Source: Escherichia phage vB_EcoM_Goslar
Direction: 5' to 3' (one strand)
Sequence record: NC_048170.1
Length of the DNA: 64,000 nt
The position numbers were made by a program, and so were the translations under genes. The notes beneath the pieces are model-generated. The model had not been told where the DNA came from. It saw only the letters and a program-made list of their open reading frames with translations, and made no database searches. Shown piece after piece: positions 14,786 to 44,988 of this stretch (the stretch's first letter is position 1; each line of letters opens with the position of its first letter).

Positions 14786-14809
14786 CACGTAAGTAATATA
14801 GCCGTGAAA
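14786..14809 (-). promoter_or_regulatory. conserved promoter-like motif, copy 1
   Basis: Plus-strand cacgtaagtaatatagccgtgaaa, identical 24-mer at 38055-38078; minus-sense contains TATATTAC; 42 nt upstream of the minus gene start at 14744. Confidence 0.45.
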
Positions 14810-14888
14810 GGATTTGTGTTGGTCCGTCTCGATGCCCATCGTATTTTATGGATTGTCGAATGACGTCATTTTAAGGGACATCCCCGGC

Positions 14889-14922
14889 CTCCTCCCCAGG
14901 AAAGGTGTGGGGAGGAGTTTTT
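14889..14922 (+). terminator. intrinsic-terminator-like hairpin with U tract, plus orientation
   Basis: 10-bp stem ctcctcccca/tggggaggag, 9-nt loop, then TTTTTAT; sits 30 nt upstream of the helicase ATG with no plus-strand gene upstream. Confidence 0.4.
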
Positions 14923-14952
14923 ATCATACATTCTATTAAATCGAGCGCGATT

Positions 14953-17034
14953 ATGTTGGATAGAATCAATCGTTTAATGAACCGAATAACGGTTAAAAAT
15001 CAGAGTAACAATAGCGTGCATATCGGGGGTATCGATGCCTGGCGTCTTTCAGATGACATTCAGCGAATATGGGGTACCTCCCGATTTATGAAACATATGT
15101 TTCGTAATTTCTCTTCTAGTGGACTCAGTCTCCACAACTTTTACCTTCTCGATTTCGTTTATATTCTCGAAACGATCGTCGAAGCAAAGAATACCCGCAG
15201 TAATAAACGCATGCTGAAACACCTTATTGAGGTACTGCTGCAGGAAACCTGGTTGCAAAATACCACAATCGAGCAACCTGCAATCCTCGATAAAGCACGC
15301 ATGAACAAAATGCTAACGCTCTCCCTGTTCGATTATCAAGATGAGTTTATCGACATCTATAACCGTAACGTACCTAAATATCGACTGAAAGGATACGTGT
15401 GTGCGATGGGTGCGGGTGCTGGTAAAACAATCACCGCATTGGCTTTAAGCGCCGCAATGAACGTCGACGTATTTGTGGTCTGCTGTCCTAAGAACACCAT
15501 GCGTTCAGCATGGCAATCCGATGTAAACAAAGCCATCGTTGACCTCGCGACAGAAACCGCATTCTGGTCAGATACAATGCCACCATCACAGCTGCAGAAA
15601 AGCGATAAGTATTATTTTCTGCATTACGAGTCGATGGGTTTATTAAACGATGTAATGATCAAGCATAAACGCACCGCGAAGCGCGTGTTGATCGTGGTTG
15701 ATGAAAGCCATAACTTCAACGACAAGAACAGCCAACGTTCCCAACGACTGGTTGATCTCGTACAGACGATGCGTCAGACCATGAATGCGGATGTGCATGT
15801 CTTGTTTATGTCGGGTACGCCCGTTAAACAGATGGGTTCTGAGATGATCCCCTGTTTAGGTTGTATCGATCCGATGTTCCAAGGACAAGTGGTCGATAGC
15901 TTCAAAGCAATTTACGGTTTAACCAGCAGTCGCGCTAACGATATCCTCAGACATCGTCTTGGGTTCATGATGCATGTCGTACCTAAAGAGGCTTACCGTA
16001 AAACCCGTCCGGAAGTTCAGGATGTTTACGTGAAGCTTCCTAATGGTAGCGATTATACCATCTCGAGTATCCGCGACGACATGGCGATATTTGTACGCGA
16101 TCGGGCGAAGTATTACAAGGATAACTGGGGGCATTACAGAAAGATTTTTGATGACGCCTTGGACTACTATCGCAAGACTATTCGTACCGATGGTGAACGT
16201 AAAGAGCTATCTCGATACGAATCGATTGTTGCTCGTTTCCAGAAAGGTTACGACCCCGTCAGAGACAAAGAAGATGCGATGTTCTGCAACGTGTTTGAAA
16301 AACGAGCGATCATGCCGGTTCTTCCTTCTGATTTAAGGGTTGCTTTCAAAGACGCCAAGAGCGTCATCAAGTACGTTGGGTTGAAAATTCAGGGTGAAGC
16401 GTTGGCGCGTGTTCTAGGTGCAGCCCGCATTCGGTGTCATGTCGACATGGTGGAGTACATCGACTTCGAAGGGTACATCAACAACGCTGAAGCCAAGGTG
16501 TTGATCTTCACGTCGTACGTTCAGGTGGTTGAGCGCGTCGACAACATGCTTCGTGATGCGGGTTTCTTACCTGAACCCATTTACGGGAAGACCAACAAAA
16601 ACATCAACCAGATACTTGCTCGTCTACGCGATGATCCTGACAGCGGTCCCGCTATCGCAACATTTGATAGCTTAGCTGAAGGGGTTCCGATGCTGATGTG
16701 TAACGTCGGCCTTTTCCTGAACAATCCATGGCGCTCATCCGATGAAATCCAAGCCATCAGCCGTCTCGACCGTGTCGGGCAAACGCAGCCTGTTCGGATT
16801 TATCGTTTCATGTTGGATACAGGAAGCGAGGGTAACGTTTCTACACGTAGCCACGAAATCATGGAGTTAAGTCGACAGCTTGTTGAAGAAATCACGGGTG
16901 TCAAATATGTAGTGAACAAGCAAGACGATGTTAACTTGCAAGAAACGTTGGCGATGGAAGGATACGATCAATACGTTACCGTAAACACCACGGAATACGA
17001 TATTAAACCGCGACCTGCATTCTTGGAATGGTGA
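14953..17034 (+). CDS. SNF2-family (SF2) ATP-dependent helicase
   Basis: Walker A GAGAGKT, DExH box LIVVDESHNF, motif III MSGTP, motif VI QAISRLDRVGQ. Start set at ATG 14953 (ORF track begins at GTG 14905 inside the hairpin). Confidence 0.7.
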   Translation: MLDRINRLMNRITVKNQSNNSVHIGGIDAWRLSDDIQRIWGTSRFMKHMFRNFSSSGLSLHNFYLLDFVYILETIVEAKNTRSNKRMLKHLIEVLLQETWLQNTTIEQPAILDKARMNKMLTLSLFDYQDEFIDIYNRNVPKYRLKGYVCAMGAGAGKTITALALSAAMNVDVFVVCCPKNTMRSAWQSDVNKAIVDLATETAFWSDTMPPSQLQKSDKYYFLHYESMGLLNDVMIKHKRTAKRVLIVVDESHNFNDKNSQRSQRLVDLVQTMRQTMNADVHVLFMSGTPVKQMGSEMIPCLGCIDPMFQGQVVDSFKAIYGLTSSRANDILRHRLGFMMHVVPKEAYRKTRPEVQDVYVKLPNGSDYTISSIRDDMAIFVRDRAKYYKDNWGHYRKIFDDALDYYRKTIRTDGERKELSRYESIVARFQKGYDPVRDKEDAMFCNVFEKRAIMPVLPSDLRVAFKDAKSVIKYVGLKIQGEALARVLGAARIRCHVDMVEYIDFEGYINNAEAKVLIFTSYVQVVERVDNMLRDAGFLPEPIYGKTNKNINQILARLRDDPDSGPAIATFDSLAEGVPMLMCNVGLFLNNPWRSSDEIQAISRLDRVGQTQPVRIYRFMLDTGSEGNVSTRSHEIMELSRQLVEEITGVKYVVNKQDDVNLQETLAMEGYDQYVTVNTTEYDIKPRPAFLEW

Positions 17035-17038
17035 TTAA

Positions 17039-17068
17039 GAAGCTCTGCCTGACATCAGGCAGAGCTTC
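17039..17068 (+). terminator. intrinsic terminator of the helicase gene
   Basis: Long inverted repeat gaagctctgcctga/tcaggcagagcttc just after the stop, followed by a T-rich stretch. Confidence 0.55.
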
Positions 17069-17133
17069 ATGCTGTATTTGTTGCAAGATCGTATGACGTA
17101 TATGCGTCGTACTTATTTAATAGGACAGAATAA

Positions 17134-18585: not shown

Positions 18586-18607
18586 AAAAAAAAATAGTTA
18601 GCATATC

Positions 18608-18639
18608 TTCCTCCCTACCCATAACGGGCGGGGAGGAAG
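18608..18639. terminator. GC hairpin between convergent genes
   Basis: cttcctccc ... gggaggaag inverted repeat followed by TTTAT; preceded by an A11 run. Confidence 0.45.
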
Positions 18640-18656
18640 GTTTATGACGATTTAAT

Positions 18657-19912: not shown

Positions 19913-19953
19913 CTAGGCCCTTCATTGATTTTTGATTCCACCAAACGCTATCG

Positions 19954-21528
19954 TTACAATTCAAAATCTTCATCGATAACACGCTGGGTAAGCACCTTGT
20001 CGCTGAAGAACTCCACCTTGCGCTGATGGTATTTACGGTGCGCTTCGATAGATGTACATACCAGATACCAGAACGTTGGTGTCATTCCTTCGAACTTCCC
20101 TTTCAGCTGACGTAGGCGTCCCAATACCTGAATGTTACCGGTTCGTGACCCCATCGCTAACGTCATGAACGTCATCACCAAGTCAGGGAGGTCGATACCT
20201 GTACCTGCCGATTTCACCGTCGTAACGCTGATATCGTTATCCAACAAGACCATGAAATCTTCTTCAGCAGTATAAGGACCAATCTCTAACTCAGGAATAC
20301 GTTCACTGAGATAATGCGATAACGACTTACACATATCAACGGTTGCACAATACACCAGCATCTTCATGCCTTCCTGATACTGGTTCATGAAACCTTTGAT
20401 GATAACGGTATAGATAAAGTTGAAATAGGCGAGTTTGAGTTGCTTGTTCTTCATGATAGACTGTTCGAATATCGTGTGAGAATAAGAACCCCCAAAGCCT
20501 TTGTATCTGACTTTATCTGTACTGCGTAATCGATACGTTACCGCATTTACCGCAATGTATTTCTTGTATTCGCATTTCGCATAACGTGCTTCTTTCGGAT
20601 ACATCAAATACAACATCCGTTCGATGAACGGATCGTCGGACACTGCCGTTGCTGACAGATAGATGATTTCCGGAATATTCGCGTAACACTTCACTTTGAA
20701 CAAGAAATGCAATGCTTCGTGACATTCATCATGGATTAACAACCCAATGCCTGTTTTCTCCCAGAACTCGACAGGATGGAAAACATAAGGTGCGACACAG
20801 TTGTTCTTTTCATAATCGGTTATGTATCTCTGAAACATGTTCAGCGAGAATAACGCAATTTTGAAATCCAGCTCACCTTGTTCCACCAACGTCTGGAATT
20901 CCAGCATGCTGTAACGAGGAATGTCTGGATGTGGTGGGTCAGATTGAGCTGTGCCACGTATCTCGATAACATCGCCCGGTTCCATACCGAAGAAACTTAG
21001 CAGTGAGCTACGCCAACCAGGCATGTATCTCGGTGACAGGATAATACCCGTCCGTACACCGCGTCGGAAGGTGATCTCCTGCGACATGGCTGTTTTACCA
21101 GACCCCGTGCCTGCGGTGTTTAAGCTCATTCTGAAGGGGGTATCCTTACCCCCGTCCATGTACTCCAACCATTCTTGTTGATCTTCACGCCACGGAAACT
21201 TCCATTTCTTTACGAACTCCACTTCCTTACCTGGCACTGGATCGTGATAAACGATTTCCAACCACTCTTTTCGGATTCCTCGAGAGAAGATAAAATCCAA
21301 AAACGATTTCAACTGTTCGCGGAGTAAGTATACCTCGCTATAATCGCTTCTCGCTGCGGCATACGTGTTTATGGTATCGGTAACCATTCTCCGTGTACGA
21401 GGGTCACGCCGTTTCCTCAGATGCAAACAACGGTCTCGAAGGTAATGGCCGATAAGATGGGCAAATCGAAGTCCGTATCCGCTCAGCCTCATGCCATGCG
21501 AGAAGACGTCGATACGAGCTAACTTCAT
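19954..21528 (-). CDS. SF2 DExH-box helicase
   Basis: Walker A GTGSGKT, motif II LIHDECHEA, motif VI-like GSRTGNIQVLGRLRQ. Confidence 0.6.
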   Translation of the reverse strand: MKLARIDVFSHGMRLSGYGLRFAHLIGHYLRDRCLHLRKRRDPRTRRMVTDTINTYAAARSDYSEVYLLREQLKSFLDFIFSRGIRKEWLEIVYHDPVPGKEVEFVKKWKFPWREDQQEWLEYMDGGKDTPFRMSLNTAGTGSGKTAMSQEITFRRGVRTGIILSPRYMPGWRSSLLSFFGMEPGDVIEIRGTAQSDPPHPDIPRYSMLEFQTLVEQGELDFKIALFSLNMFQRYITDYEKNNCVAPYVFHPVEFWEKTGIGLLIHDECHEALHFLFKVKCYANIPEIIYLSATAVSDDPFIERMLYLMYPKEARYAKCEYKKYIAVNAVTYRLRSTDKVRYKGFGGSYSHTIFEQSIMKNKQLKLAYFNFIYTVIIKGFMNQYQEGMKMLVYCATVDMCKSLSHYLSERIPELEIGPYTAEEDFMVLLDNDISVTTVKSAGTGIDLPDLVMTFMTLAMGSRTGNIQVLGRLRQLKGKFEGMTPTFWYLVCTSIEAHRKYHQRKVEFFSDKVLTQRVIDEDFEL

Positions 21529-23531
21529 AACGTGATTACATCCTCCGGTTTAGGTTCTTTACGCGGTAAAAGCATGTAGTCGATCGGATGATCCGGCTTC
21601 ATGGTTGGGATATAACTGTTCGGGTTTTGGAACGCATCCAGTTGCTCTTGGTGAGCGAACTTCATACTCAAGGAGCGCATGTTCATGTTCTTCTTGAAGG
21701 TACTGAAGTATCGTGTTGTTCCCTGTTTCGGCATGCGATAATCTTTCGTGTGTGGTGAACGAATCATGCTGGCGTAGAGAATAACATCGAGATGCGAAAG
21801 GTTCATTCGCAGACGCTGGGCACACAGACGATGCCAATAGTACAGCACGTTTGCAACTTCTTCCGGTGTCGCTTCGTCTTCCGAAAGGAATCCGGCACTG
21901 AAAGAACCTTTCCCGAATTTGAATTCACGTTCGATTTCTTTTGCGTATTCCATCATGTTTTTGTGGATTAACGGCATCTGGAATAACGTACGTGAATTGT
22001 CCCAATGTTTCAAGTCGAAAATCACAATCCCGTCAGACGTCACTTCCCAGCTATGGCGTTTAAGATAACGGATAAACGCTTTACTCGGGACAACGGGACG
22101 TCCACAGAAATCGAAATTGACTTTGAGCTTACGGTAGCTTTCATCTTTCCTGTCGTAAATCTCCATATCACAAAGCGTCATGTTAAACAGGCGTTGCGGT
22201 ATCAGCGAACTGATTTCTTCCGCTTCCGCTACATCGTACAACATGTTCGCAAGACCTAACTTCATCTTAATCAGCACGTGTTTACCTTTCAGCTCACGTG
22301 CGAGTTTGATGTCGTTCATATTCTGGCTGTAGCGAAGGATATGTTGATATTCCGGTGGGATTGGTGCTGTGGATACCGTTGACGAACCATCATGGTGTTT
22401 GGTAGAAAGAATGTTCTGCGTTACCTGTTGCGAACAGGTACGCGCTGCGCCATCGCCGACATTATCGGTTAGTGCGAAGTTATGACTTAATTCACCGTAA
22501 CACGTCGTACATACCCCAGCAGGATCGGGATGATGACAATAGTTAACGGAGCGCATACGCACTGTGGTGCCGATCAATTCTTTCATGTGTGGTTGTATCG
22601 CTACCAACGAACCGTCATCGCGAATAATGAATCGACCGTGGAAGCCACGCAGGTCGGTCTCATCACGGATTGGCATCGGGATGGTCTCTTTACTACCACA
22701 ATCTCCAGGATGGAGTCGTTGTACAACCGCTGTCGCTATCTGAAGTTCACGACCGAAATATTCAGACTTCTTGATCTGCTCTTTGTTGAACAGCAACGAC
22801 TTCGCCGCAGAACGACTTTCTTTCAAGCTGTCGGGAAGAGAGATCAAACCTGCCGCGTACGACCGCATTACTGGATCACGGAATATCTCGGAGTTAATAT
22901 CGGTCAAGAATCCACGCATCCCAATACACTGCAGCACCTGCCCAATCGAAACGTGTTCGGTTCGTACCGCACGCGCAATAGGGTTTGCGTGTAACGTTTT
23001 ATCGGTGCTCAGTACCTTGGTCAGTTTCTTGTATGCGCTTTCGATACCTTCACGGGTGGGTTCCGCTTCGGCGATGATTTTCTTAACTTCAGGATGTACG
23101 GTAATCTGATAAAAATCATCCGCGCAAATAGTCGTTACGTATTCCTCCAGCGCATACGTAAAGAAGTTATATACATTGTTAAACATATCGAACAATGCTT
23201 TCCAGAGAACCTCACGATTCTCTTGTGGATAAGCATACATGCATTGACGATACGCGGCGCTTTGCAACGCAACCGACGAACCAGCAGTAAACTTGCGTTT
23301 ATCGACCAGGTTCTCTTTTGTCAATGGTGTCTCAGGATACATGCGATGCACAGACCAGTGCATGTAACTAAAGAAAATGCGTCGCGCACGCAATTCATGA
23401 ACGCCATCGTCCATCTCGATATATACACGGTCATTAGGCTGTGCCCACTCGAATACTTCATCAACCGGCCAGTGCATAAGCTCGCGTGCCCTCACACGAC
23501 GTTTCGTGGTGGTCGTCTGTGTTATAGTCAT
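21525..23531 (-). CDS. multisubunit RNA polymerase beta'-like subunit, C-terminal part
   Basis: MRSVNYCHHPDPAGVCTTCYGELS parallels bacterial beta' RSVVSCDTDFGVCAHCYG, followed by a degenerate bridge-helix region. Confidence 0.55.
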   Translation of the reverse strand: MTITQTTTTKRRVRARELMHWPVDEVFEWAQPNDRVYIEMDDGVHELRARRIFFSYMHWSVHRMYPETPLTKENLVDKRKFTAGSSVALQSAAYRQCMYAYPQENREVLWKALFDMFNNVYNFFTYALEEYVTTICADDFYQITVHPEVKKIIAEAEPTREGIESAYKKLTKVLSTDKTLHANPIARAVRTEHVSIGQVLQCIGMRGFLTDINSEIFRDPVMRSYAAGLISLPDSLKESRSAAKSLLFNKEQIKKSEYFGRELQIATAVVQRLHPGDCGSKETIPMPIRDETDLRGFHGRFIIRDDGSLVAIQPHMKELIGTTVRMRSVNYCHHPDPAGVCTTCYGELSHNFALTDNVGDGAARTCSQQVTQNILSTKHHDGSSTVSTAPIPPEYQHILRYSQNMNDIKLARELKGKHVLIKMKLGLANMLYDVAEAEEISSLIPQRLFNMTLCDMEIYDRKDESYRKLKVNFDFCGRPVVPSKAFIRYLKRHSWEVTSDGIVIFDLKHWDNSRTLFQMPLIHKNMMEYAKEIEREFKFGKGSFSAGFLSEDEATPEEVANVLYYWHRLCAQRLRMNLSHLDVILYASMIRSPHTKDYRMPKQGTTRYFSTFKKNMNMRSLSMKFAHQEQLDAFQNPNSYIPTMKPDHPIDYMLLPRKEPKPEDVITL

Positions 23532-23676
23532 TATTGCTTTCCGATTTAAATGGTTTTATCATACGGTTTACCAAATCCGTTGGACTTTACTATCGTTGTG
23601 ATAGCATTGGGAATCCCTTCCCTTAGGTTATGTAGGTGTTAATATATCTCCACTGCTGACCTTTATGTCGGCAGCA

Positions 23677-24682: not shown

Positions 24683-24704
24683 TATGTTTTTCCTCAGGTG
24701 AATG

Positions 24705-25055: not shown

Positions 25056-25174
25056 ACCAGGGATCCTCTTTTAAGTGTTCACATTCTAGTGTTAAGCAGT
25101 TAAAATAAACCGTCCCTTTAATCAGCATAAACATCCTCCTCCCACCACATGGGCAGGAGGAGGCGTAATATGCA

Positions 25175-25585: not shown

Positions 25586-25596
25586 CGTATACCTCG

Positions 25597-31139: not shown

Positions 31140-32726
31140 TTATTTTTTTCCTCTTAAATTTACTACGTGTTCATTTAATCGAACAACTAATTGCACAAGC
31201 TGCTGACGGATATCTGCTGGACAAAGCATCAATCCTTTACGGTCAGCTGGGACTTTCTCAAGGATTTCCGGGCCTGCTGCTGAAACATCCCAGTCCCATT
31301 CACAAAACGCATCGGCCACCATGTTAATACCGACAACCGGTAAAGTTGTACGTTCATCTTCATACATGGCGTGTGGATACAATTTATTGACAGTAATGAT
31401 CTCCTGTGGTTTTAATTGGTGGATAATCTGATAAACATCGTCGCGTTTAACCTGGATACCTACGGTCAGCGCTGCCAGTTGAGGAAAACCCCAATGGTCT
31501 AATAAGCAAGCTGCAATCGCTAACGCTTTTGCTTGATGCACGGCTTCAATCGGTGCCAGACTTCTCGCCGGAAGATGGCTATCAAGCAACCATTGTGCCA
31601 GTGCTCGGCATCCGCGGTTGATTGGTTTTAACTCAACGGTGTCATCATGTTTAGCGTACGTGTATCCGTCGTAACGTTTTGCGATACGCGCATACATGTC
31701 TTCAACTTTACCGTAAGGTGCTGTTTCGTCGACGTCGTGTAACACACGTTCCATCTGGGTAAGATACGCGATGTCAAGAATGAGTACACGCGGTGAACGT
31801 TTATCTTTCACCATCAACGCATCAATCACGCCTTGACTGTCTTCATCTTGCGCGTTCCCTCGTGGGGTTTTCTCACGAATCGGTCCGCTGAAACGTCGTT
31901 CCGTACAAAGGTTATTCACGTAGCTAAAGATCAGTGTTACCAGATGCGTACAACTCACCAACACCCCATCTTTAACGACAGGCTGTACGGCTTGGTCCAA
32001 ATCGCGTACGGCGAGACGGCGGACGATGGCTTGTGAACGCAACCAGCCGGGCACTTTCTCCGTCGACATGTAATCCACGGTCATCGACAGCGTGATCTTT
32101 TTATCACCCGTCTGTGCGCGGATATAGTCTTCCAGTCGGTCGTAAGCGGCGATATCATGAATGCATGTTTTATACATCAACGACATAGCCACTTCTTCTT
32201 TACGGACTGTCCCGTACGTTTTCCCTGCGTCAATCAGAAACTCCGCCCAAATCGGCACCATCAGACGGACGTAGATCGCTAACGCCGTTAACTCAACGTA
32301 ATCATTTCGTAAATAGGTTTTCTCAGGTATGTCATCCTCACCTAATGTTGTTTTCATGTCCGGTGGTAATTTTACCCAACCTGGGGTATTACACAACGCC
32401 AGAATCTCTTCATACACAACCGGTTTGTAAATTTCACCAACAGCGCGACTCAACTCCTCCATTTGTTGTTGTGGAGCAATGTAGTTATCCATCGCTTCAC
32501 GTGCTTTAACGAACCCTTCGAAGATGTCGTCAATTCGACGTGGGTTCTTTTGTTCTATCCAGGCGAGATACTTGTTAATCTCCCGCATCTGATTGCTAGC
32601 CATATCCCCATCAATCTTGATGTAACCCTGGCCTGAAAATTCCACAGTACGTCCATCACGATGTTTGATGAGATAGTGATCCAGCTTTTCTTTTCCTTGC
32701 GTCGTAATGACGGGCACTATGTGCAT
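31140..32726 (-). CDS. hypothetical protein
   Basis: Start set at ATG 32726 (MHIVPV...) preceded by AGAGG; the longer ORF to 32861 has an Arg-rich extension. Confidence 0.5.
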   Translation of the reverse strand: MHIVPVITTQGKEKLDHYLIKHRDGRTVEFSGQGYIKIDGDMASNQMREINKYLAWIEQKNPRRIDDIFEGFVKAREAMDNYIAPQQQMEELSRAVGEIYKPVVYEEILALCNTPGWVKLPPDMKTTLGEDDIPEKTYLRNDYVELTALAIYVRLMVPIWAEFLIDAGKTYGTVRKEEVAMSLMYKTCIHDIAAYDRLEDYIRAQTGDKKITLSMTVDYMSTEKVPGWLRSQAIVRRLAVRDLDQAVQPVVKDGVLVSCTHLVTLIFSYVNNLCTERRFSGPIREKTPRGNAQDEDSQGVIDALMVKDKRSPRVLILDIAYLTQMERVLHDVDETAPYGKVEDMYARIAKRYDGYTYAKHDDTVELKPINRGCRALAQWLLDSHLPARSLAPIEAVHQAKALAIAACLLDHWGFPQLAALTVGIQVKRDDVYQIIHQLKPQEIITVNKLYPHAMYEDERTTLPVVGINMVADAFCEWDWDVSAAGPEILEKVPADRKGLMLCPADIRQQLVQLVVRLNEHVVNLRGKK

Positions 32727-32930
32727 AACAACCTCTTTTCGCGGTTCCCTGTTAAAACGTCTTCTGTGACGTCTACCACAAAGGTAATATAAGCGTGAAT
32801 AATTTTGGATTCCGGCTGAGTTATCGCTCAGCATGCAAGGCATCCCGCCGAAGCGAGACACCTTGCACTAACGGAAAATATTCGCGTTACCTTCTGAATC
32901 GAAGACTCAGAATGCGATGCTAAAGCATTA

Positions 32931-36921: not shown

Positions 36922-36934
36922 GAGGAACTCCTCT

Positions 36935-37408: not shown

Positions 37409-37503
37409 TTCATAGAGTGGTGGAAATTCGTAGAAAGTTACAAAAATAAAAAAGAATGGGCAGCCCCTCCCCACCCGAAGGTAGGGAGGGACCGCAAATA
37501 TAC

Positions 37504-37989
37504 TTAAACCAAAGCTGCGATAACGTCGTTAACATTACGGCCTCGCAACTCTGCCGCTAAACGAATAACTTCATCCAGGGAACGGTTTGTACGAATCTTG
37601 GCCACTTTCCAATTTTCAGGATACTGTTCGAAGTTAAGCAACCAAGTCATTACCTTTGCTTGTTCCATACCGTTGAGTTTGATTGTCGTGCGCGGATTGG
37701 CTTTGAACCACTTCTTGCTCAGCTGTGCCATACGGCGAACAGGGTAAGCGTAAGCGCGAGTCCAGTCTTTGGACAGATTGTCGAGTAATTCACAGTAGCT
37801 GTTGTCGTAGTCTTTGTTGATACGACGTAATAACCAGTTGGCGGTCATCTGATAAAGTTTATCATCTTCACGTAACCGCATACCCGCTACTGCTAAATAA
37901 ACGATAAGACCTGCGCCCAGGATGAGAGACAGGATAAACAGAATTTGGGTTTCTTGTGCTAAAGTCATTTTACTATCCTCGGATTTCAT
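37504..37989 (-). CDS. hypothetical membrane protein
   Basis: Predicted transmembrane helix ILFILSLILGAGLIVYLAVAG near the N-terminus. Confidence 0.45.
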   Translation of the reverse strand: MKSEDSKMTLAQETQILFILSLILGAGLIVYLAVAGMRLREDDKLYQMTANWLLRRINKDYDNSYCELLDNLSKDWTRAYAYPVRRMAQLSKKWFKANPRTTIKLNGMEQAKVMTWLLNFEQYPENWKVAKIRTNRSLDEVIRLAAELRGRNVNDVIAALV

Positions 37990-38054
37990 TAGGATTTAAT
38001 TTCCAATATAAGGGCAATGTGATATGCCTTATACAGTCGATTGATGTTGTACAT

Positions 38055-38078
38055 CACGTAAGTAATATAGCCGTGAAA
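38055..38078 (-). promoter_or_regulatory. conserved promoter-like motif, copy 2
   Basis: Identical 24-mer to 14786-14809; 66 nt upstream of the minus gene start at 37989. Confidence 0.45.
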
Positions 38079-38087
38079 AATGTTGGA

Positions 38088-38924: not shown

Positions 38925-38967
38925 AAACCCTCCCCGCCTTATGCAGGGAGGGTAGCCATTAAATGGA

Positions 38968-39606
38968 TTAACCTAATTTACCACCGGCGATGTTGGTGAA
39001 ATCTTCGCCATCAGGAACTTGCAGTAGGATACGTGCCATGTCCCAGTTGGTTAATGTGATTGCTTTATCATCGATACTCAGTTCTGGTAGGTCGAGTTCA
39101 TGATCATCAAACTCGTAGGAAATACTCCACGTTTCGTCTGTTTTAGGATCGGTTATCAACACACCGTCTGTTACACGCATGTAGTCCGGATGCAGTTCAT
39201 TACTGAATGTGCTGAACGGATCGGTGTAACATTCAGCATACCCCTCGATCTGCTGACGCTGTGCCTTCGTACGTAATTCAGGGCATGCCATGATCAGTTG
39301 TCGAGATATGCCGTTTGCGGCACGGAAGTCTTCCACGGTGTTACATGGCATAACCACATCGTCATGGAAGATGTTCTCCGATTGTCTCAGCAAAGTCTTA
39401 CGGAGTTCAGCATAGTTTATCTGATTGAATGCATCGAACGTTGCTAACGATTCAGCGTAAAAATGCTTTACGTGTTCGCTTGCACCGCCGAGACTATTCA
39501 TCAACTTGTGACCGTACTCCATGAAACTTTTATCGAGACCGGAGGACATTTCTCCGAACCTCAGTGCACGATAACTGTCTCGTCCACCTGTAAATATTTG
39601 CGCCAT
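38968..39606 (-). CDS. hypothetical protein
   Basis: 212-aa ORF with AGGAGG RBS, directly downstream of beta'-N exon 3. Confidence 0.45.
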   Translation of the reverse strand: MAQIFTGGRDSYRALRFGEMSSGLDKSFMEYGHKLMNSLGGASEHVKHFYAESLATFDAFNQINYAELRKTLLRQSENIFHDDVVMPCNTVEDFRAANGISRQLIMACPELRTKAQRQQIEGYAECYTDPFSTFSNELHPDYMRVTDGVLITDPKTDETWSISYEFDDHELDLPELSIDDKAITLTNWDMARILLQVPDGEDFTNIAGGKLG

Positions 39607-39621
39607 TACAGGCGTCCTCCT

Positions 39622-39846
39622 TTAGCAATGGGTGTTAGTTGCTTCTATTTCGTCAAGATAAGGTTCTACGTCATCGCCCTCCACGAATTCGTTGAACCAG
39701 CAGTCAATGGTAGAAATAACCGGTGACTGGTGTTCACATTTCTTAGATACCTTAAAAGGTACGTTATTATCCATCATACCGAGTTCGGGTCGAAAACGCC
39801 CGAAATGTTTCGCAGTCCAAATGTCTGGGACGATATGGTTGTTCAT
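39622..39846 (-). CDS. RNA polymerase beta'-like N-terminal subunit, proposed exon 3
   Basis: Begins MNNHIVPD, aligning with beta' QMAVHVPL right after the catalytic DFDGD; in frame with proposed exons 1 and 2. The exact 3' splice site is uncertain. Confidence 0.45.
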   Translation of the reverse strand: MNNHIVPDIWTAKHFGRFRPELGMMDNNVPFKVSKKCEHQSPVISTIDCWFNEFVEGDDVEPYLDEIEATNTHC

Positions 39847-40201
39847 CGTGGTGTTCAGCATGAGTCGCTACCTCATACCCGCAGCTTTACCTGCAGCTTC
39901 CGGTGTTACCGGAATGTCCAGAATACATCTTATCCATATTCCAAATGGAACGTAGGACTTCCGCGCTGGATCTCGCTTGAGACCACGTATTCGTTGAACG
40001 TTCTCCTGAACGGAGCTTCGCTGCTGATCGAACATTGTCGCGTACGGTAGGCGTCCCCGAAGGGATTGTCATTGAAGCCGCGTACATCCGCTACCTTGTT
40101 TCTACCTTATCGGTTCCTCTTACGAGGCGTAGCGGCCTTAGCCCTTCCCAGCAATTCACGGAATCCAAGCTCTTCCTTTCGGAAGGCAGGGCCTATGATT
40201 A
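39847..40201 (-). ncRNA. putative group I intron 2 (ORF-less)
   Basis: Minus-sense elements in canonical order: P-like GAATTGCTGGGAAGGG (40157-40142), Q-like CAGCAGCGAAGC (40026-40015), R-like GTTCAACGAATACG (39999-39986), S-like AAGATGTATTCTGG (39931-39918). R/S pair as GAATAC/GTATTC. GAAA and UUCG tetraloop hairpins; ends in G at 39847. Confidence 0.5.
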
Positions 40202-40214
40202 AGCGTCACCGTCG
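40202..40214 (-). CDS. RNA polymerase beta'-like N-terminal subunit, proposed 13-nt mini-exon (encodes D-G-D-A)
   Basis: Minus-sense CGACGGTGACGCT supplies GAC GGT GAC; joined to exon 1 (...GAC TT) it restores NADFDGD. Confidence 0.4.
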
Positions 40215-41654
40215 CTTACGTGCACCGACGTTTATTAACTCATGGTTATCCACTGAAATACGGCGTTAGGGAAATAATCCTTCTTGCCGCGTTTTGAGAT
40301 TTGCAATGCCATATTACTCGGAGACAATCTGTAATGCCATGCTGCTTCATCGATAGAACTAAACTTCTTTGTTTCACCGTTATCAAAGATGATTTTCAAC
40401 GCCAGTTTAGGTAAATCGTCTTCCGTTTCTACTAATTCGAAAGAATCGATATTCTCTGCCAGCGTCAACGGATCAACTGGTAATATCAGCCAACCAGCAC
40501 GCTGCAATCCTCCACGTAGACTAATTTGTTTATTCAACGCAGGGGTAGCCATGCCAACTAACTTAGCAGCCAGCTTGCGGTCTTTAATATAAAGACGATA
40601 ATCTCCGGTATTATTAATAGCATACACACCAAAGTTATTGAACGATACCTTTCCAGCATCGGAACTAGTAAAGCCTACAAAGTCGTGGCTGTCGGTAGCC
40701 ACGTCGTATTTAAATGCTAATGGCTTGTTTCGACTGCCGCTAAGATACTTCTTGGCTGTAGATACCGATATGTTGAGATATCGTCCAATAGCATTCAAAC
40801 TTTCTAGTTCGATGATTTCTCCTGTCAATATGTCCTTTAACCGAACATTACCCATCGGTATTGGTGGTTTACCGACATAACCCAATTCACGATATGCGTG
40901 TTTCAAGTTATCTGAATCAGTAGCCCATTCCAAATTTTCTAGTCTGTTATCCCAACGCACCCCATTAAGATGATTAGGGACACGACGGATTATACCTGAC
41001 GTCGGATCTGGGTTAAATGTTTCAAGGACAATCTGATGATGGTATTTCACTTTATTGTTCCTAGTGAAAGCGCGATAGTTGTTTTTGCCCGACTTGGGTG
41101 GTTCAGTACGAAACAACACTGTCAGACTAGACACATCTACTATCGTACCGTTCTTATTAACAACGATACCATCAAAACCATTAACAGGACGATAATCAGA
41201 CAAACAATCTTCAGAAATTGCCTGTCCAACTAAAGGTTCACTCAATTTGACCTCCTTTATAAAAGAAGTCGGTGCACGTAATTATCGACTATATCTTCAT
41301 CCTCGTTGCGAGGAGTCTCCCGTTTTGGTCTGTGTTTAACAGAGCCTACTCTACTCGACATCGCGTCTTTCGATAGTCTGTGAGCACACATCTTAACGAA
41401 CATTCGTGGATTCCTAAACAGGTGAACGTTCTTGTTGAGATGCTTCGCTGCGGATTATTCCCGTCCTACCTCTTTTACCCTACCCAGTTCATTACGCTGG
41501 CCCTCATCTGTGTCACCACGATGAGTTGGTGTGTAGTCCGATTACAGAAACTTCCCGTCAATTAGAGAGTTTTAACTACGTTCCTGTTACCAGAAACCCG
41601 ACTCCGACGATATCAATAAATCAACGTAAGTTATTGATTTAATTGAAGAAACTG
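40215..41654 (-). mobile_element. putative group I intron 1 carrying an HNH homing endonuclease gene
   Basis: Minus-sense P AATTGACGGGAAG (41563-41551), Q AATCCGCAGC (41456-41447), R CTCACAGACTATCG (41384-41371), S AAGATATAGTCGA (41297-41285). Candidate internal guide GAGTCGG (41604-41598) pairs with the exon 1 end CCGACTT with G-U at the splice site. 14-bp inverted repeat (41268-41281 and 40216-40229) encloses the ORF; terminal G at 40215. Confidence 0.6.
40235..41245 (-). CDS. HNH homing endonuclease (intron-encoded)
   Basis: KYHHQIV...VPNHLNGVRWDNRLENLEWATDSDNLKH matches the HNH motif; C-terminal helix-turn-helix-like regions; TTG start 5 nt after AAAGGAGGT. Confidence 0.75.
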   Translation of the reverse strand: MSEPLVGQAISEDCLSDYRPVNGFDGIVVNKNGTIVDVSSLTVLFRTEPPKSGKNNYRAFTRNNKVKYHHQIVLETFNPDPTSGIIRRVPNHLNGVRWDNRLENLEWATDSDNLKHAYRELGYVGKPPIPMGNVRLKDILTGEIIELESLNAIGRYLNISVSTAKKYLSGSRNKPLAFKYDVATDSHDFVGFTSSDAGKVSFNNFGVYAINNTGDYRLYIKDRKLAAKLVGMATPALNKQISLRGGLQRAGWLILPVDPLTLAENIDSFELVETEDDLPKLALKIIFDNGETKKFSSIDEAAWHYRLSPSNMALQISKRGKKDYFPNAVFQWITMS

Positions 41655-42910
41655 AAGTCGGCATTATAACCTTTGAGGATCATCACGCTTAACCCGATGG
41701 TGTTATCCTGCGGATCGCGTTTAACCTTGGTGATTTCAAGACATTGGTTACTGCTTCGGTCAAGTGATGGGTTTCGAACAAAGCCACACACAATCCCATC
41801 GAACGGTGTATCAGCAATAAGCTCATCGTGCAGCTCGCTCATCATCGGATGATAATTACGGACATGTTCCGCAACGAACGCACGTGCTGCTCTCGGTGAA
41901 TAACCACGATGGAATAACTTGGATTGGATATGTTCTTTATTGGTTAAAGTAAATGGTGCGTATGGGAAATGCAGATGATAATAACGATGGTTCGCTGTTA
42001 TCGAACTGATTACAGTACGCGTGGTGAATGGATGTAATGTACCTAATATGTTTTTACGTGTAATACCTTTCTTCTTACCGATGAACTCATCGAAAATCGC
42101 CGCGTGGTATTGCAGCAGCTTCAATTGCACTTTCGCCATCCAGTTTTCTTTCTTTCTGGCGCTCAAAGGTGTTGTTGGATGATAGATACTATTCAACGTA
42201 CCGATAGCATCGATCGCACCTTCCATTTTGCTATCTGCATAACGACCGGTCGGCGTATTTTCGATAACGAACATCATGGCCGCAGGAAAGCTGATATACT
42301 GACTGAAGAACTTATCACGATGGATTCGGATGAATTCTCGTAGCGTGTCAACTTTCTCCGTGTTCTTCGGTCCACGTAACGTAGGTCCTTTATACAAGAT
42401 CTCCATGATGCGATCGAAGTTCTGTATAAAGCTATTTACGCCACGACGTATCCCGAATACATCGAATTGCTGCTCCAGATAGTTCTTGAGTTCGATGGGT
42501 CGTTTTACATTTGGACGGTAACTGGCATCAATGAGCCACGTCATCGTTTCAAAGCTTTTGATATTCAACTCGCTTGCCAGCACGAGATGGACCAACGGGT
42601 TAATGAACGCATCGATTCCTTCAGGAACACGCGCCCAAACCGTCGAACGAATCTCTTGTTCTGCTGGGTAGGTTACAACCGTTTTACAGTTTGGACACAC
42701 CGTGCCGAGTAGCTCACCACGATTGTAGAAACCACAACCACATTGTGGTGTGATATCCAACGTATCGCTGGAATAAACACGGGTGATAAAACTGTTTAAT
42801 TTCTTCTTCTCTTCGACGACTTTTGTATCGTAATCGTTCAACAAAATCGGCGTAAAAGGAAGTTCTGCGAGCTGTCTATCGAAACTCACGATATCGAGCA
42901 TGATGGCCAT
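41655..42910 (-). CDS. RNA polymerase beta'-like N-terminal subunit, exon 1
   Basis: Zinc ribbon CGCGFYN...CPNC; GITRKNILGTLHPFTTRTVI parallels [20 protein letters not shown]; ends ...LKGYNADF. The unspliced ORF then reads SFFN-stop. Confidence 0.7.
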
Positions 42911-42952
42911 GGGGTATCTCCTACAAATGAAAAAGAACGTTAGGACGTATAA

Positions 42953-42976
42953 GGGAGGGAGGTTGCCCTCCCTCCC
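42953..42976 (-). terminator. GC hairpin downstream of the 631-aa gene
   Basis: Perfect 10-bp inverted repeat gggagggagg/cctccctccc with 4-nt loop. Confidence 0.5.
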
Positions 42977-43002
42977 GTCAGATTACATCGAACGTTCTTC
43001 CA

Positions 43003-44898
43003 TTAGAACAGGTTGAATGCCCCACCCATGTTGTTAACGCCAACATTCGGACGATCGCTACGTGCGTAGATGTTACCGGAGATGTTACCCAGACCACGAG
43101 CACGTGCTGCCATGTTACCACGAACAGCGGTACCTGCCAGATGCTGGATGTTCTCAGGACGGATGGTGAAGCCAGCATCAGCAGCGGCTTCGATCAGCGC
43201 CTGCAGTGCTAACGGATCGAAGTCGTAACGCATTGCCCAGCCGGTTTGTTCCCAGCTACCAGACAGAACACGATCGATGATTTCGTGACGAGCGACAACA
43301 CGCTGAGACATCGTCATATCGGTACGGTCGAAGCTGTCTTCCCAAGCTTCTACGGTATCCGGGTTAGTGATGTTCATCATGTACAGATCGTCCATATCAC
43401 GAATATCGTGACGGTGACCATCCTGGTGGTTGTAGTGACCCAGCGGGATACGGTTACCGGTAGCGTAGACCAGCGGTAAGCCGTATTGATATTTCTTGCT
43501 GAAGCAACCCAGGGTAACATCATCGAACGCACGGTAAAGCGCTTTGTAACCTTCGGAGATTTCACGGACTTCACCTTCAACTTTGCCCGTATAGATCTTC
43601 TCAGCCGCCGGGATCATACGCAGCAGCCAGCTGTACTCACCTTCTTCCGGTACGTCGATAGAAATCAGCAGAGACGGATACAGTACCTGTTGCAGGAACT
43701 TGTAAATCTGCTCGTTGGTTTGAGTGGACAGATCCAGCGGTGCGGTAACTTCCGGATCCAGTACCATCGCCAGAGCACCCGGGTTATGCGGACCAATACC
43801 ACGGGCAGCGTTGCTGATTAAAGACTGTGCCCACGCCATACCGCTGTTCAGCGTAGCGATGGTGCCAATCAGCCCCAACACGAAAGTGTTCGGCGTGAAC
43901 GCATCCAGCTCCAGCGGGTAAGCGCTGGTCATCACGTAACGCGGCTGGTATTGTACAGTCGGCGGTACCGGATAACCGTTAACCAGAACAGGGCCTTGGT
44001 TGAAGGTCGGGTTCTGCGGGCTGTAGGTCAGGTCGATGTAACCGGTGGTGGCGACCAGACGCTGTTGACTATCGTAATCGCTCATCGCTTGACGGATACG
44101 GTTAGAGATAGTTACAGTGATGTCAGAACGCACAGGGTTACCAACAATATCGCTGTCCTGCATACCGCTGGTGTTATACTGAACGCTGCTGATTGGCTGA
44201 TCGCTTGCCATCATGCCCAGGTTGAACTGCGGCAGACCCAGTTTATCACCGAGACGGATTTCGATCGCGGTTTGGATTGCGTTATCTGCAGCAGACAGCA
44301 GGGTGGTTGCCAGATGCGCAGATTCAGCGGTGATTTCATTGGTCACCACAGCCAGACCAGCGATACGAGCAGTACCATTAGACTTACCGCCAATAGCTGC
44401 ATACATTGCCGCCATGACTTCGTTGATGAACGTACCGTTCAGGTTATCAACCCAGGTACGCGGTACCAGAATGTTACCATGCGGACCTTGTTCTTCACGA
44501 CGCGGCAGCGGAGCCAAACCGGCAACCAGCGGAAGCACATAACCAAAGAAGTGGTTATGGTCACCAACTTTTGCACCACTCATAACGACCAGGGTCGGAT
44601 ACGGTACGCTGTACTGGTTCGGGTCAACCGCAACAAAGATGAAGTCGTCTTTGAACCGGGTATCTTCCAGATATTTCTCCATCAGACGACGGAGATTCAG
44701 TACCTGCTCGGAGCCAGTATTACGGCTAATACGACGGCTCAGTGTACGGTTGATCGTACGCATCGTATGAGTTACTTTAGGCTGGCCAGCAAAATCTGCA
44801 GCGGTTTCCAGCGCCTCATCAGCACGTTGTGCGGTGCGGGTTTCAGCTGCACGAATTTCTACATTATCGTTACCGTTATTACGTACGTCTAAGCCCAT
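43003..44898 (-). CDS. abundant structural protein candidate: chimallin-like nuclear-shell protein (alternative: capsid or sheath protein)
   Basis: 631-aa ORF with codon usage that looks strongly biased; promoter-like motif 67 nt upstream; sits immediately upstream of the beta'-N gene, the arrangement I recall for the phiKZ shell-protein and RNAP genes. No diagnostic motif seen by eye. Confidence 0.45.
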   Translation of the reverse strand: MGLDVRNNGNDNVEIRAAETRTAQRADEALETAADFAGQPKVTHTMRTINRTLSRRISRNTGSEQVLNLRRLMEKYLEDTRFKDDFIFVAVDPNQYSVPYPTLVVMSGAKVGDHNHFFGYVLPLVAGLAPLPRREEQGPHGNILVPRTWVDNLNGTFINEVMAAMYAAIGGKSNGTARIAGLAVVTNEITAESAHLATTLLSAADNAIQTAIEIRLGDKLGLPQFNLGMMASDQPISSVQYNTSGMQDSDIVGNPVRSDITVTISNRIRQAMSDYDSQQRLVATTGYIDLTYSPQNPTFNQGPVLVNGYPVPPTVQYQPRYVMTSAYPLELDAFTPNTFVLGLIGTIATLNSGMAWAQSLISNAARGIGPHNPGALAMVLDPEVTAPLDLSTQTNEQIYKFLQQVLYPSLLISIDVPEEGEYSWLLRMIPAAEKIYTGKVEGEVREISEGYKALYRAFDDVTLGCFSKKYQYGLPLVYATGNRIPLGHYNHQDGHRHDIRDMDDLYMMNITNPDTVEAWEDSFDRTDMTMSQRVVARHEIIDRVLSGSWEQTGWAMRYDFDPLALQALIEAAADAGFTIRPENIQHLAGTAVRGNMAARARGLGNISGNIYARSDRPNVGVNNMGGAFNLF

Positions 44899-44964
44899 TT
44901 GGGATTCCTCTTTTCTTAAACTTTATTAAATGACGTCATTGAATCAGCTTCTACTCGCTCATTC

Positions 44965-44988
44965 ACCTAGGTAATATAACCCTGAAAT
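44965..44988 (-). promoter_or_regulatory. conserved promoter-like motif, copy 3
   Basis: cacctaggtaatataaccctgaaa, 20/24 identical to copies 1 and 2; 67 nt upstream of the gene start at 44898. Confidence 0.4.

What the first reader, a model, noticed from the sequence alone, without database searches (positions are those of the whole stretch)
14786..44988. Recurrent 24-nt promoter-like motif containing TATATTAC upstream of three minus-strand genes
cacgtaagtaatatagccgtgaaa occurs identically at 14786-14809 and 38055-38078, and with four mismatches at 44965-44988. Each copy lies 42-67 nt upstream of a minus-strand start codon. Read in the sense of those genes it is TTTCACGGCTATATTACTTACGTG, whose AT-rich core resembles what I recall of early promoters in phiKZ-like phages. 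One copy drives the chimallin-like gene, which would be expected to be expressed early.
Basis: partly seen in the sequence, partly recalled or inferred. Interest (0 to 1): 0.6.

Follow-up and report, generated by a model that had tools for sequence, protein, structure and literature searches.

The report
Early promoters of jumbo phage Goslar

Summary
The 24-mer is exact at 14786-14809 and 38055-38078, with a 4-mismatch copy at 44965-44988. A fourth copy lies at 32777-32799. The shared architecture is TTCA-N4-TATATTAC-YT-NN-GTG: 4 hits against 0.02 expected. A weight-matrix scan scores these four at 30-44 bits and the next site at 4 bits. All four are intergenic, on the minus strand, 42-87 nt upstream of start codons.

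The window is E. coli jumbo phage Goslar or a near-identical phage: its chimallin is 100% identical to PDB 7SQT. The copies precede chimallin, the homolog of PHIKZ068 (sigma-like subunit of the non-virion RNA polymerase), an HD-domain gene and a small monocistronic gene.

The architecture and spacing match published early-promoter consensuses of 201phi2-1, OBP and N1M2, and the phiKZ core TATATTAC. The same signal precedes chimallin in phiKZ-like SL2, PhiPA3, D6, RSL2, Eowyn and a metagenomic phage with 28% identical chimallin. It has no match in 596 Gb of bacterial genomes, no sigma-70 -35 partner and no hairpin.

Verdict: virion-RNA-polymerase early promoters; a new member of a known kind. 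No transcription start data exist for Goslar, so timing and start sites are inferred.

The parts
14786..14808 (-). Early-promoter copy P1: TTCACGGCTATATTACTTACGTG, preceded by T and followed by A. The 25 nt are identical to P2 and the flanks are unrelated. Predicted transcription start at or near the GTG(A) at about 14788-14785.
   Evidence: (39.7 bits). It lies in the divergent intergenic region 14745-14904, 42 nt upstream of ATG 14744.
32777..32799 (-). It lies 51 nt upstream of ATG 32726.
   Evidence: (30.5 bits). A GC-rich hairpin lies just upstream (about 32834-32865).
38055..38077 (-). Early-promoter copy P2: TTCACGGCTATATTACTTACGTG. It lies 87 nt upstream of the Shine-Dalgarno-backed ATG 37968.
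   Evidence: (44.3 bits).
44964..44986 (-). Early-promoter copy P3: TTCAGGGTTATATTACCTAGGTG, preceded by the A-tract GAAAAAAAT. It lies 66 nt upstream of the chimallin ATG 44898.
   Evidence: (39.0 bits). Positional orthologs lie upstream of chmA in other chimalliviruses.
43003..44898 (-). chmA (chimallin, the nuclear shell protein), the first gene downstream of P3.
   Evidence: 100% identity over 631 aa to PDB 7SQT, Goslar chimallin. tblastn hits annotated nuclear shell proteins.
41639..42910 (-). Homolog of PHIKZ055 (nvRNAP beta' N-terminal part), the next gene after chmA on the same strand. A GC-rich hairpin at about 42953-42976 lies between them.
   Evidence: searches (E 5e-62 to 7ogp_A; phrog_2987), for the hairpin sequence.
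31140..32726 (-). Homolog of PHIKZ068, the sigma-like fifth subunit of nvRNAP; first gene downstream of P4.
   Evidence: E 6e-28 to 9rjs_B/7ogp_B, residues 23-518; phrog_3209. The role of gp68 is taken from PMC13282480.
25597..27930 (-). Homolog of PHIKZ071/073 (nvRNAP beta), further down the same minus-strand gene run as P4.
   Evidence: (E 1e-85).
21525..23531 (-). Homolog of PHIKZ074 (nvRNAP beta' C-terminal part), in the same minus-strand run.
   Evidence: (E 1e-86).
14058..14744 (-). First gene downstream of P1: an HD-domain protein (phrog_3921). It heads a long run of small minus-strand genes.
   Evidence: (Pfam HD, E 5.6e-8).
37504..37968 (-). Small gene (154 aa, no family match) downstream of P2. 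It appears to be a one-gene transcription unit.
   Evidence: no family. The start codon was chosen from relatives.
37460..37495 (-). Strong terminator-like hairpin (16 pairs, 11 of them G-C) that closes the P2 unit.

Best explanation
The four sites are early promoters of phage Goslar, a member of the Chimalliviridae. [quoted passage not shown]

The signal has three parts: TTCA at about -20, preceded by T or an A/T-rich tract; the invariant TATATTAC centred near -10; and YT-NN-GTG(A), where transcription probably starts at a purine.

Immediately after injection the vRNAP would start at these sites and produce four sets of products:
(i) chimallin, which builds the phage nucleus;
(ii) the sigma-like subunit of the second, non-virion polymerase (nvRNAP), and probably further subunits by read-through;
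(iii) an HD-domain protein at the head of a run of small genes;
(iv) a small stand-alone gene.

Shown here: the existence, statistics, position and orientation of the sites; the gene identities; conservation of the signal in related phages; and the absence of a host-type promoter or a hairpin. Inferred: which polymerase reads the sites, the timing, and the exact start site.
For: 1. Statistics. There are 4 hits against 0.02 expected. The weight-matrix scores are bimodal: 30-44 bits for the four sites against 4 bits or less elsewhere. P1 and P2 are identical over 25 nt with unrelated flanks, which points to selection on the motif rather than a duplicated segment.

2. Position. All four sites are intergenic, co-oriented with the downstream gene, and 42-87 nt before a Shine-Dalgarno-backed ATG.

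3. Match to published consensuses. The elements and spacing are those of the early-promoter consensuses of 201phi2-1 (TTTRARR_BTATATTACDWHDGTG), OBP and N1M2 (TTTCARRYAKATATTATYWAAGTG), and phiKZ (TATATTAC). A review states that every RNA-polymerase-encoding jumbo phage has such a motif centred near -10, and that it proved to be the early promoter wherever transcripts were profiled.

4. Gene logic. P4 lies directly upstream of the PHIKZ068 homolog, and P3 upstream of chmA followed by the PHIKZ055 homolog. The nvRNAP genes must be transcribed before nvRNAP exists. In phiKZ, PHIKZ054 has an early-motif primary transcription start site.

5. Orthologous conservation. The same signal lies upstream of chmA in SL2, PhiPA3, D6, RSL2 and Eowyn. 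It also lies 71 nt upstream of a chimallin only 28% identical in a metagenomic contig. A diverged version (GATATTAC) lies upstream of a 24%-identical gp68 homolog.

6. Family-wide scan. The pattern TTCA-N4-TATATTAC-N-T-NN-GTG in IMG/VR lands mainly in contigs of 140 kb or more (59 of the 80 rows shown). Of those sites, 77% are non-coding and 79% have a Shine-Dalgarno-backed ATG 15-130 nt downstream (median 52), against 9% and 9% for random positions. A control pattern of similar information content hits mostly small unrelated contigs (3 of 80 rows at 140 kb or more).

7. Phage specificity. There are 0 matches in 596 Gb of bacterial and archaeal genomes.

8. The enzyme is present. All five Goslar vRNAP subunits were detected in virions by mass spectrometry (bioRxiv 10.64898/2026.04.21.720040).
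Against: There are no transcription start or time-course data for Goslar in the searchable literature, so 'early' and 'vRNAP' rest on homology and logic.

Only four copies lie in this window. At least 7 distinct loci are visible in a 237.5-kb relative, fewer than the 28-32 early promoters of phiKZ. The class may therefore be incompletely captured.

GC-rich hairpins lie between chmA and the PHIKZ055 homolog, and before the PHIKZ071 homolog, so read-through into those polymerase genes is uncertain.

The implied 5'UTRs (44-89 nt) are longer than the 31-40 nt typical of phiKZ.

To my knowledge, promoter-specific transcription by a purified chimallivirus vRNAP has not been reconstituted in vitro. 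Direct recognition is therefore unproven even in the model phages.
Confidence: 0.85

Rival explanations
1. The sites are middle or late promoters, or dual-use promoters, read by the non-virion polymerase (nvRNAP) rather than by the virion enzyme.
For: In phiKZ the chimallin gene has a second, middle-type start site. In 201phi2-1 some nvRNAP genes sit behind middle or late promoters. No timing data exist for Goslar.
Against: The phiKZ middle motif (TACT near -22 after an A-rich repeat) and late motif (TATG at the start site) do not resemble this signal. The early core TATATTAC is identical to it. A site directly upstream of an nvRNAP subunit gene cannot depend on nvRNAP for its first expression.
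Confidence: 0.06
2. The sites are promoters for the host E. coli sigma-70 RNA polymerase, with TATATT acting as a -10 box.
For: TATATT matches TATAAT at 5 of 6 positions, and the sites lie upstream of genes.
Against: The sigma-70 scan reports no promoter-like site overlapping any of the four copies. Sigma-70-like sites in the region are at or below chance (24 against 30.5 expected; 17 against 27.2). The conserved TTCA lies 4 nt from the -10-like box, not 17. The strict pattern has 0 matches in 596 Gb of bacterial genomes. Relatives of this phage transcribe independently of the host polymerase.
Confidence: 0.03
3. The motif is an operator for a phage or injected DNA-binding protein (repressor, activator or nucleoid-type factor), and not the polymerase recognition site itself.
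For: The signal is long (23 nt) and shows a weak dyad (TTCAC...GTGAA in P1 and P2). Sequence alone cannot separate a factor site from a polymerase site.
Against: The dyad is not maintained in P3, P4 or the relatives; there is no covariation between the S position and the base before GTG. The position relative to start codons is promoter-like (median 52 nt). In the model phages, mapped start sites lie about 10 nt downstream of the homologous motif.
Confidence: 0.04
4. The motif is a structured element (an N4-type DNA hairpin promoter or an RNA hairpin), or a remnant of a duplicated or mobile repeat.
For: P1 and P2 can form a 5-bp stem (TCACG/CGTGA) around a 13-nt loop.
Against: Folding energies are weak (-1.8 to -3.5 kcal/mol; z-scores -0.2 to -1.7) and the predicted structures differ among the four copies. 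The flanks are unrelated, so the copies are not part of a longer repeat. Rfam gives no match in the window at gathering threshold.
Confidence: 0.01

Closest known systems
Predicted early promoter of Pseudomonas phage 201phi2-1 (TTAWTAVAA_HYWTTTRARR_BTATATTACDWHDGTG; PMC7058600 Table 2; early motif with mapped starts in PMC11512511)
   Same: Identical core TATATTAC. TTT lies 6 nt upstream and GTG 4 nt downstream, at the same spacing. The sites are intergenic and sit ahead of early genes. The motif lies about 10 bp upstream of the mapped transcription start sites.
   Different: Goslar has C at TTTCA and prefers S-G-N-Y before the core. Its upstream A/T-rich tract is less regular. The host is E. 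coli, and no mapped start sites exist.
phiKZ early (vRNAP) promoters, core TATATTAC, 28-32 per genome (PMC8244752, PMC10914365, PMC13282480)
   Same: Same 8-mer, described as an extended -10 box, with a T-rich element upstream of about -19. It drives chimallin (PHIKZ054) and nvRNAP genes. The chmA promoter is a positional ortholog: SL2 reads GAAAAAAAATTGAGATTTATATTAC and Goslar reads GAAAAAAATTTCAGGGTTATATTAC.
   Different: The phiKZ consensus is AT-rich without the sharply conserved TTCA and GTG flanks. phiKZ has more copies per genome. Its promoters are experimentally validated and Goslar's are not.
Predicted early promoters of Pseudomonas phage OBP and Klebsiella phage N1M2 (…TTTCARRYAKATATTATYWAAGTG…; PMC7058600)
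   Same: Same flanks TTTCA and GTG at the same spacing. N1M2 has 31 genomic copies ahead of operons, including RNA polymerase genes.
   Different: The core is KATATTAT rather than TATATTAC. These phages belong to a different clade.
The 'TTCAGATATATATTACYTAGGTG' family seen here in many 219-285 kb IMG/VR contigs
   Same: Same 23-nt architecture, several copies per contig, non-coding, about 50 nt upstream of a Shine-Dalgarno-backed ATG.
   Different: The four bases between TTCA and the core are GATA rather than CGGC. I did not establish the identity of these contigs.
Phage-polymerase promoters of T7 and N4
   Same: Long, sharply conserved phage-specific promoters present in a handful of copies. 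In N4 they are read by a virion-borne polymerase that starts the transcription cascade.
   Different: T7 and N4 use single-subunit polymerases, and N4 promoters are DNA hairpins. Here the polymerase is multisubunit and no hairpin is present.

Membership tests
Chimalliviridae / phiKZ-like vRNAP early promoter | Highly conserved AT-rich core of about 8-10 nt (TATATTAC in phiKZ and 201phi2-1) | tested here: met
   TATATTAC is invariant in all four copies. It is identical to the published core.
Chimalliviridae / phiKZ-like vRNAP early promoter | Core centred about 10 nt upstream of a mapped transcription start site | not testable with these tools
   No Goslar transcription start data were found. 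The conserved GTG(A) 4 nt after the core would put the core at about -12 to -5, which is an inference.
Chimalliviridae / phiKZ-like vRNAP early promoter | Upstream T-rich / TTTCA element near -20, and a flanking architecture shared with relatives | tested here: met
   TTCA is present in 4 of 4 copies at fixed spacing. The spacing TTT-N6-core-N4-GTG equals that of the 201phi2-1, OBP and N1M2 consensuses.
Chimalliviridae / phiKZ-like vRNAP early promoter | Intergenic, co-oriented with the downstream gene, at the head of transcription units | tested here: met
   All 4 copies are intergenic and 42-87 nt from a start codon. Family-wide, 77% of sites are non-coding against 9% of random positions.
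Chimalliviridae / phiKZ-like vRNAP early promoter | Genome encodes two multisubunit RNA polymerases, one of them packaged in the virion | tested here: met
   The nvRNAP homologs gp55, gp68, gp71/73 and gp74 are in the window. The five vRNAP subunits lie outside the window but were reported in Goslar virions by mass spectrometry.
Chimalliviridae / phiKZ-like vRNAP early promoter | Drives genes needed first (chimallin, nvRNAP subunits), with expression in the first minutes | tested here: inconclusive
   The positions fit: P3 precedes chmA and P4 precedes the gp68 homolog. Expression timing cannot be tested here.
Chimalliviridae / phiKZ-like vRNAP early promoter | Conserved at orthologous positions in related phages | tested here: met
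   The signal lies upstream of chmA in SL2, PhiPA3, D6, RSL2, Eowyn and IMG/VR L083; LucasX has diverged. A diverged version lies upstream of a gp68 homolog in L122.
Bacterial sigma-70 promoter | -35 (TTGACA-like) and -10 (TATAAT-like) hexamers 16-18 nt apart | tested here: not met
   No scan hit overlaps any of the four copies.
N4-type vRNAP hairpin promoter | Stable DNA hairpin with a conserved stem and loop | tested here: not met
   Minimum free energies are -1.8 to -3.5 kcal/mol, not different from shuffles, and the folds are inconsistent among copies.
phiKZ middle / late (nvRNAP) promoters | TACT near -22 after an A-rich repeat (middle); T-3 ATG+1 at the start site (late) | tested here: not met
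   Neither signature is part of the conserved 23-mer.

The most novel reading that the evidence does not exclude
The signal may be more than a -10-like box. It could be a tripartite 23-nt recognition code (TTCA-N4-TATATTAC-YT-NN-GTG) kept almost unchanged across chimalliviruses of E. coli, Klebsiella, Ralstonia and Pseudomonas whose proteins have diverged to under 30% identity.

If so, it marks a conserved core early regulon (chimallin and the sigma-like nvRNAP subunit), and the first-minutes gene set of uncultured jumbo phages could be read directly from sequence.

The two ACCTACATWACCT sites (23625-23637 and 59630-59642) would then be a second, weaker or differently timed class built on the same -10-like element.
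Probability: 0.35. Interest if true: 0.45.

Novelty: new member of a known kind. Interest (0 to 1): 0.25.

Why it matters
The result gives Goslar, the main E. coli model for nucleus-forming phages, a concrete and testable map of where its injected polymerase should start. It names the first genes expressed: chimallin, the sigma-like nvRNAP subunit, an HD-domain protein and a small orphan gene. The sharply defined 23-nt signal can be used in three ways: to annotate early regulons in related metagenomic jumbo phages, to design reporters or knock-downs, and to test what the still poorly understood vRNAP recognises. It does not reveal a new mechanism.

Tried and rejected
- Megablast of 10 kb of the window against INPHARED phages gave no match. 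Identity came instead from the chimallin protein against the PDB.
- The 8-mer alone and its 1-mismatch variants are not enriched, so there is no halo of weak copies. The weight-matrix scan found no fifth site.
- The sigma-70 promoter idea was rejected.
- The hairpin or RNA-structure idea was rejected. Rfam found nothing at gathering threshold and there are no tRNAs.
- Enrichment of GACGTC near the promoters was rejected: 25 hits against 22 expected.
- The IMG/VR scan for the second motif (TAANACCTACATNACCT) returned mostly small unrelated contigs, so it looks like chance; I used it as a negative control.
- The 583-aa ORF behind an L025 site is not chimallin.
- I tried to obtain exact start-site spacing from Ceyssens 2014 and from the supplements of three transcriptome papers. 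None was held.
- tblastn of a putative last exon of the split nvRNAP beta' gene gave no match.
- No paper describing Goslar promoters was found.

Full report
**Observation.** The 24-mer CACGTAAGTAATATAGCCGTGAAA occurs exactly at 14786-14809 and 38055-38078, with none expected in shuffles. Read on the minus strand it is TTTCACGGCTATATTACTTACGTG. The copy at 44965-44988 reads TTTCAGGGTTATATTACCTAGGTG and has four mismatches.

Searching the core TATATTAC gave four exact hits, all on the minus strand. The extra hit, at 32784-32791, belongs to a fourth copy: TTCACGCTTATATTACCTTTGTG at 32777-32799.

The 8-mer itself is not enriched (4 against 2.6 expected), and neither are its one-mismatch variants (58 against 61.8). 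The shared 23-nt pattern TTCASGNYTATATTACYTNNGTG has 4 hits against 0.02 expected. A weight matrix built from these sites and their relatives scores the four at 30.5-44.3 bits. The next best site in 128 kb of both strands scores 4.0 bits, and the shuffle maximum is 7.8 bits. The window therefore holds exactly four copies of a sharply defined signal.

P1 and P2 are identical over 25 nt but have unrelated flanks, so the motif itself is what is conserved. It is not a leftover of a longer duplication.

**Position.** In a crude gene map about 10.7% of the window is non-coding. All four copies are intergenic and point at a minus-strand gene.

The distance from the 3' end of the motif to the start codon is 42 nt for P1 (ATG 14744), 51 nt for P4 (ATG 32726) and 66 nt for P3 (ATG 44898). 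For P4 the mechanical GTG at 32861 is too far upstream.

For P2 the distance is 87 nt to ATG 37968.

A strong terminator hairpin at 37495-37460 closes the P2 unit after one small gene.

**Which genome.** The 631-aa ORF behind P3 is 100% identical to the chimallin chain of PDB 7SQT, which is Goslar chimallin. It is about 23% identical to annotated nuclear shell proteins of Eowyn, PhiPA3 and RSL2. The window is therefore E. coli jumbo phage Goslar or a near-identical phage. Two IMG/VR contigs are 97-98% identical at this protein.

**Genes behind the copies.**
- P3: chmA, followed on the same strand by a homolog of PHIKZ055, the nvRNAP beta' N-terminal part (E 5e-62).
- P4: a homolog of PHIKZ068 (E 6e-28, full length). 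This is the sigma-like subunit needed for promoter recognition by nvRNAP (PMC13282480). Two conserved unknown genes follow, and further down the same strand lie homologs of PHIKZ071/073 and PHIKZ074.
- P1: an HD-domain protein heading a long run of small minus-strand genes.
- P2: a 154-aa orphan gene.

GC-rich hairpins lie between chmA and the gp55 homolog and before the gp71 homolog. How far each transcript runs is therefore open.

**Comparison with known promoters.** PMC7058600 (Table 2) lists these predicted early promoters:
- 201phi2-1: TTAWTAVAA_HYWTTTRARR_BTATATTACDWHDGTG
- OBP: …TTTYARRYAKATATTATYWWADTG
- N1M2: …TTTCARRYAKATATTATYWAAGTG…
- phiKZ: TATATTAC

The Goslar motif has the same elements at the same spacing: TTT, 6 nt, an 8-nt core, 4 nt, GTG.

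A review of jumbo-phage RNA polymerases makes three relevant points (PMC7598289). Such a motif can be found in every phage that encodes these enzymes. It is centred near -10. Wherever transcripts were profiled, it proved to be the early promoter, presumed to be read by the virion polymerase.

In 201phi2-1 the motif lies about 10 bp upstream of mapped start sites (PMC11512511). In phiKZ, dRNA-seq found the early motif at 32 start sites. These include the primary start of PHIKZ054 (chimallin), which also has a secondary, middle-type start (PMC8244752).

All five vRNAP subunits have been detected in Goslar virions (bioRxiv 10.64898/2026.04.21.720040).

**Independent comparative tests.**

(a) Upstream of chmA. 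The sequences are:
- phiKZ-like SL2: GAAAAAAAATTGAGATTTATATTAC
- PhiPA3: GAAAAAAATCTCACATCTATATCAC
- D6: TAAAAAATCTCAGATCTATATAAC
- RSL2: AAACAAATTTCATTGATATATTAC
- Eowyn: …AAACGTATATTACTTAGGTG
- Goslar: GAAAAAAATTTCAGGGTTATATTACCTAGGTG

These come, and the alignment is. A 46-kb metagenomic contig has TTCAGGCGTATATTACCTTAGTG 71 nt upstream of a chimallin only 28% identical. LucasX has diverged.

(b) Upstream of a gp68 homolog only 24% identical. A terminator is followed by TTTTTTTCGGACAGATATTAC about 70 nt before the ATG.

(c) The strict pattern across collections. It occurs in 15 stretches of IMG/VR, mostly in contigs of 180-237 kb. It occurs nowhere in 596 Gb of bacterial and archaeal genomes.

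(d) The looser pattern TTCA-N4-TATATTAC-N-T-NN-GTG. Of the 80 rows shown, 59 come from contigs of 140 kb or more, often with several hits per contig.

Among 97 usable sites, 77% lie outside any stop-free stretch of 100 codons or more. A Shine-Dalgarno-backed ATG opening an ORF of at least 50 aa lies 15-130 nt downstream in 79% (median 52 nt). For 550 random positions in the same loci both figures are 9%.

A control pattern of similar information content (TAANACCTACATNACCT) hit mostly small unrelated contigs; only 3 of 80 rows were 140 kb or more.

**Rivals.**
- Host sigma-70 promoter. No sigma-70-type site overlaps any copy, and such sites are at or below chance in the region.
- Hairpin. Single-strand folding is weak and inconsistent among the copies, which argues against an N4-type hairpin promoter or an RNA element.
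- nvRNAP promoter. The motif does not resemble the phiKZ middle or late signatures. A site directly upstream of an nvRNAP subunit gene cannot rely on nvRNAP for its first expression.
- Factor-binding site rather than polymerase site. Sequence alone cannot exclude this, but it fits poorly with mapped start sites behind the homologous motif in model phages.

**Mechanism (inferred).** After injection, the virion polymerase binds double-stranded TTCA / TATATTAC and initiates at a purine in the conserved GTG(A), about 5-8 nt after the core. That puts the start near 14788-14785, 32779-32776, 38057-38054 and 44966-44963, giving 5'UTRs of roughly 44-89 nt.

These transcripts supply chimallin and the sigma-like nvRNAP subunit, which sets up the switch to nvRNAP-driven middle and late transcription inside the phage nucleus.

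**Verdict.** This is the Goslar member of a known promoter class. I found no publication describing Goslar promoters. It is therefore a new member of a known kind, useful for annotation and experiment design, but not surprising to a specialist. Interest: 0.25.

Noticed in passing
window 23625-23637 (-) and 59630-59642 (-): A second motif, ACCTACATWACCT, occurs exactly twice. Both copies are intergenic and on the minus strand, and share a longer context (GGAGATwwAwwTAAmACCTACATwACCT). One lies 94 nt upstream of the PHIKZ074-like nvRNAP gene and the other 30 nt upstream of ORF 59049-59600. It resembles the predicted promoter of phage EL (…AAACCTACATTATY) and has a degenerate TATATTAC-like core. 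It may be a second promoter class, but with only two copies this is unproven.
   Followed up: partly
window 39600-42910 (-): The PHIKZ055-like nvRNAP beta' ORF ends …GYNADFSFFN*, inside the catalytic NADFDGD motif. It is followed by a full-length group I intron match just below Rfam's threshold (41269-41645, 46.9 bits against 50, E 3.8e-10) and by an HNH/NUMOD1 endonuclease ORF (40235-41245). After that come isolated 'DGD' codons near 40205-40213, a weak second intron hit (39959-40163), and an ORF reading …TMNNHIVPD…. This looks like a gene split by one or two introns with a micro-exon, as named for phiKZ (PHIKZ055/056.1). The exon junctions were not resolved.
   Followed up: partly
L121 about 1380-1460 (IMGVR_UViG_3300011560_000001, the ortholog of window 32777-32799): In this 99%-identical relative the gp68 promoter carries a 38-nt insertion immediately after TATATTACCT: CTATGAACAAAGTCATAGAGGCGACATAAATGTTACCT. 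It is flanked by a TTACCT direct repeat and, with the CT just before it, forms an 8-bp hairpin. The new junction reads TATATTACCTCTATGA, so a purine-TG is kept at the usual spacing. This is a natural test of what positions the start site.
   Followed up: partly
window 14860-14869 and 44930-44939: The 10-nt palindrome ATGACGTCAT occurs exactly twice, both times in the two divergent intergenic regions that hold early-promoter copies. One lies 52 nt upstream of P1 and the other in the predicted chmA 5'UTR. The core GACGTC is not enriched (25 against 22 expected). It may be a regulator site or a coincidence.
   Followed up: partly
window, e.g. 4976-4983, 12962-12969, 25123-25130, 48530-48537, 52578-52585 (all -): Many intergenic GC-rich hairpins (CCCTCCC…GGGAGGG stems, TTCG/CTTCGG loops) are followed by TTTATGCYG. 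TTATGCYG occurs 10 times against 3.8 expected. TATG is the phiKZ late-promoter core, so these could be combined terminator and late-promoter modules, or a phage-specific terminator tail.
   Followed up: partly
window 14000-49000: Sigma-70-type promoter-like sites are at or below chance (24 against 30.5; 17 against 27.2). This fits a phage that does not use the host polymerase.
   Followed up: no
window 2709-3291: A 583-nt stretch has no ORF of 60 aa or more in my crude map, yet contains several Shine-Dalgarno-like sequences followed by ATG (for example taggaggttagaATG). It may hold a cluster of very small genes.
   Followed up: no
L003, L005, L009, L011, L015 (IMG/VR contigs of 214-229 kb plus one 23-kb fragment): A more distant clade carries the same promoter with a longer conserved upstream element: TTTAAGATACAGnnnGTTTCACGTCTATATTACTTGGGTGATTAAGACAAT.
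   Followed up: no
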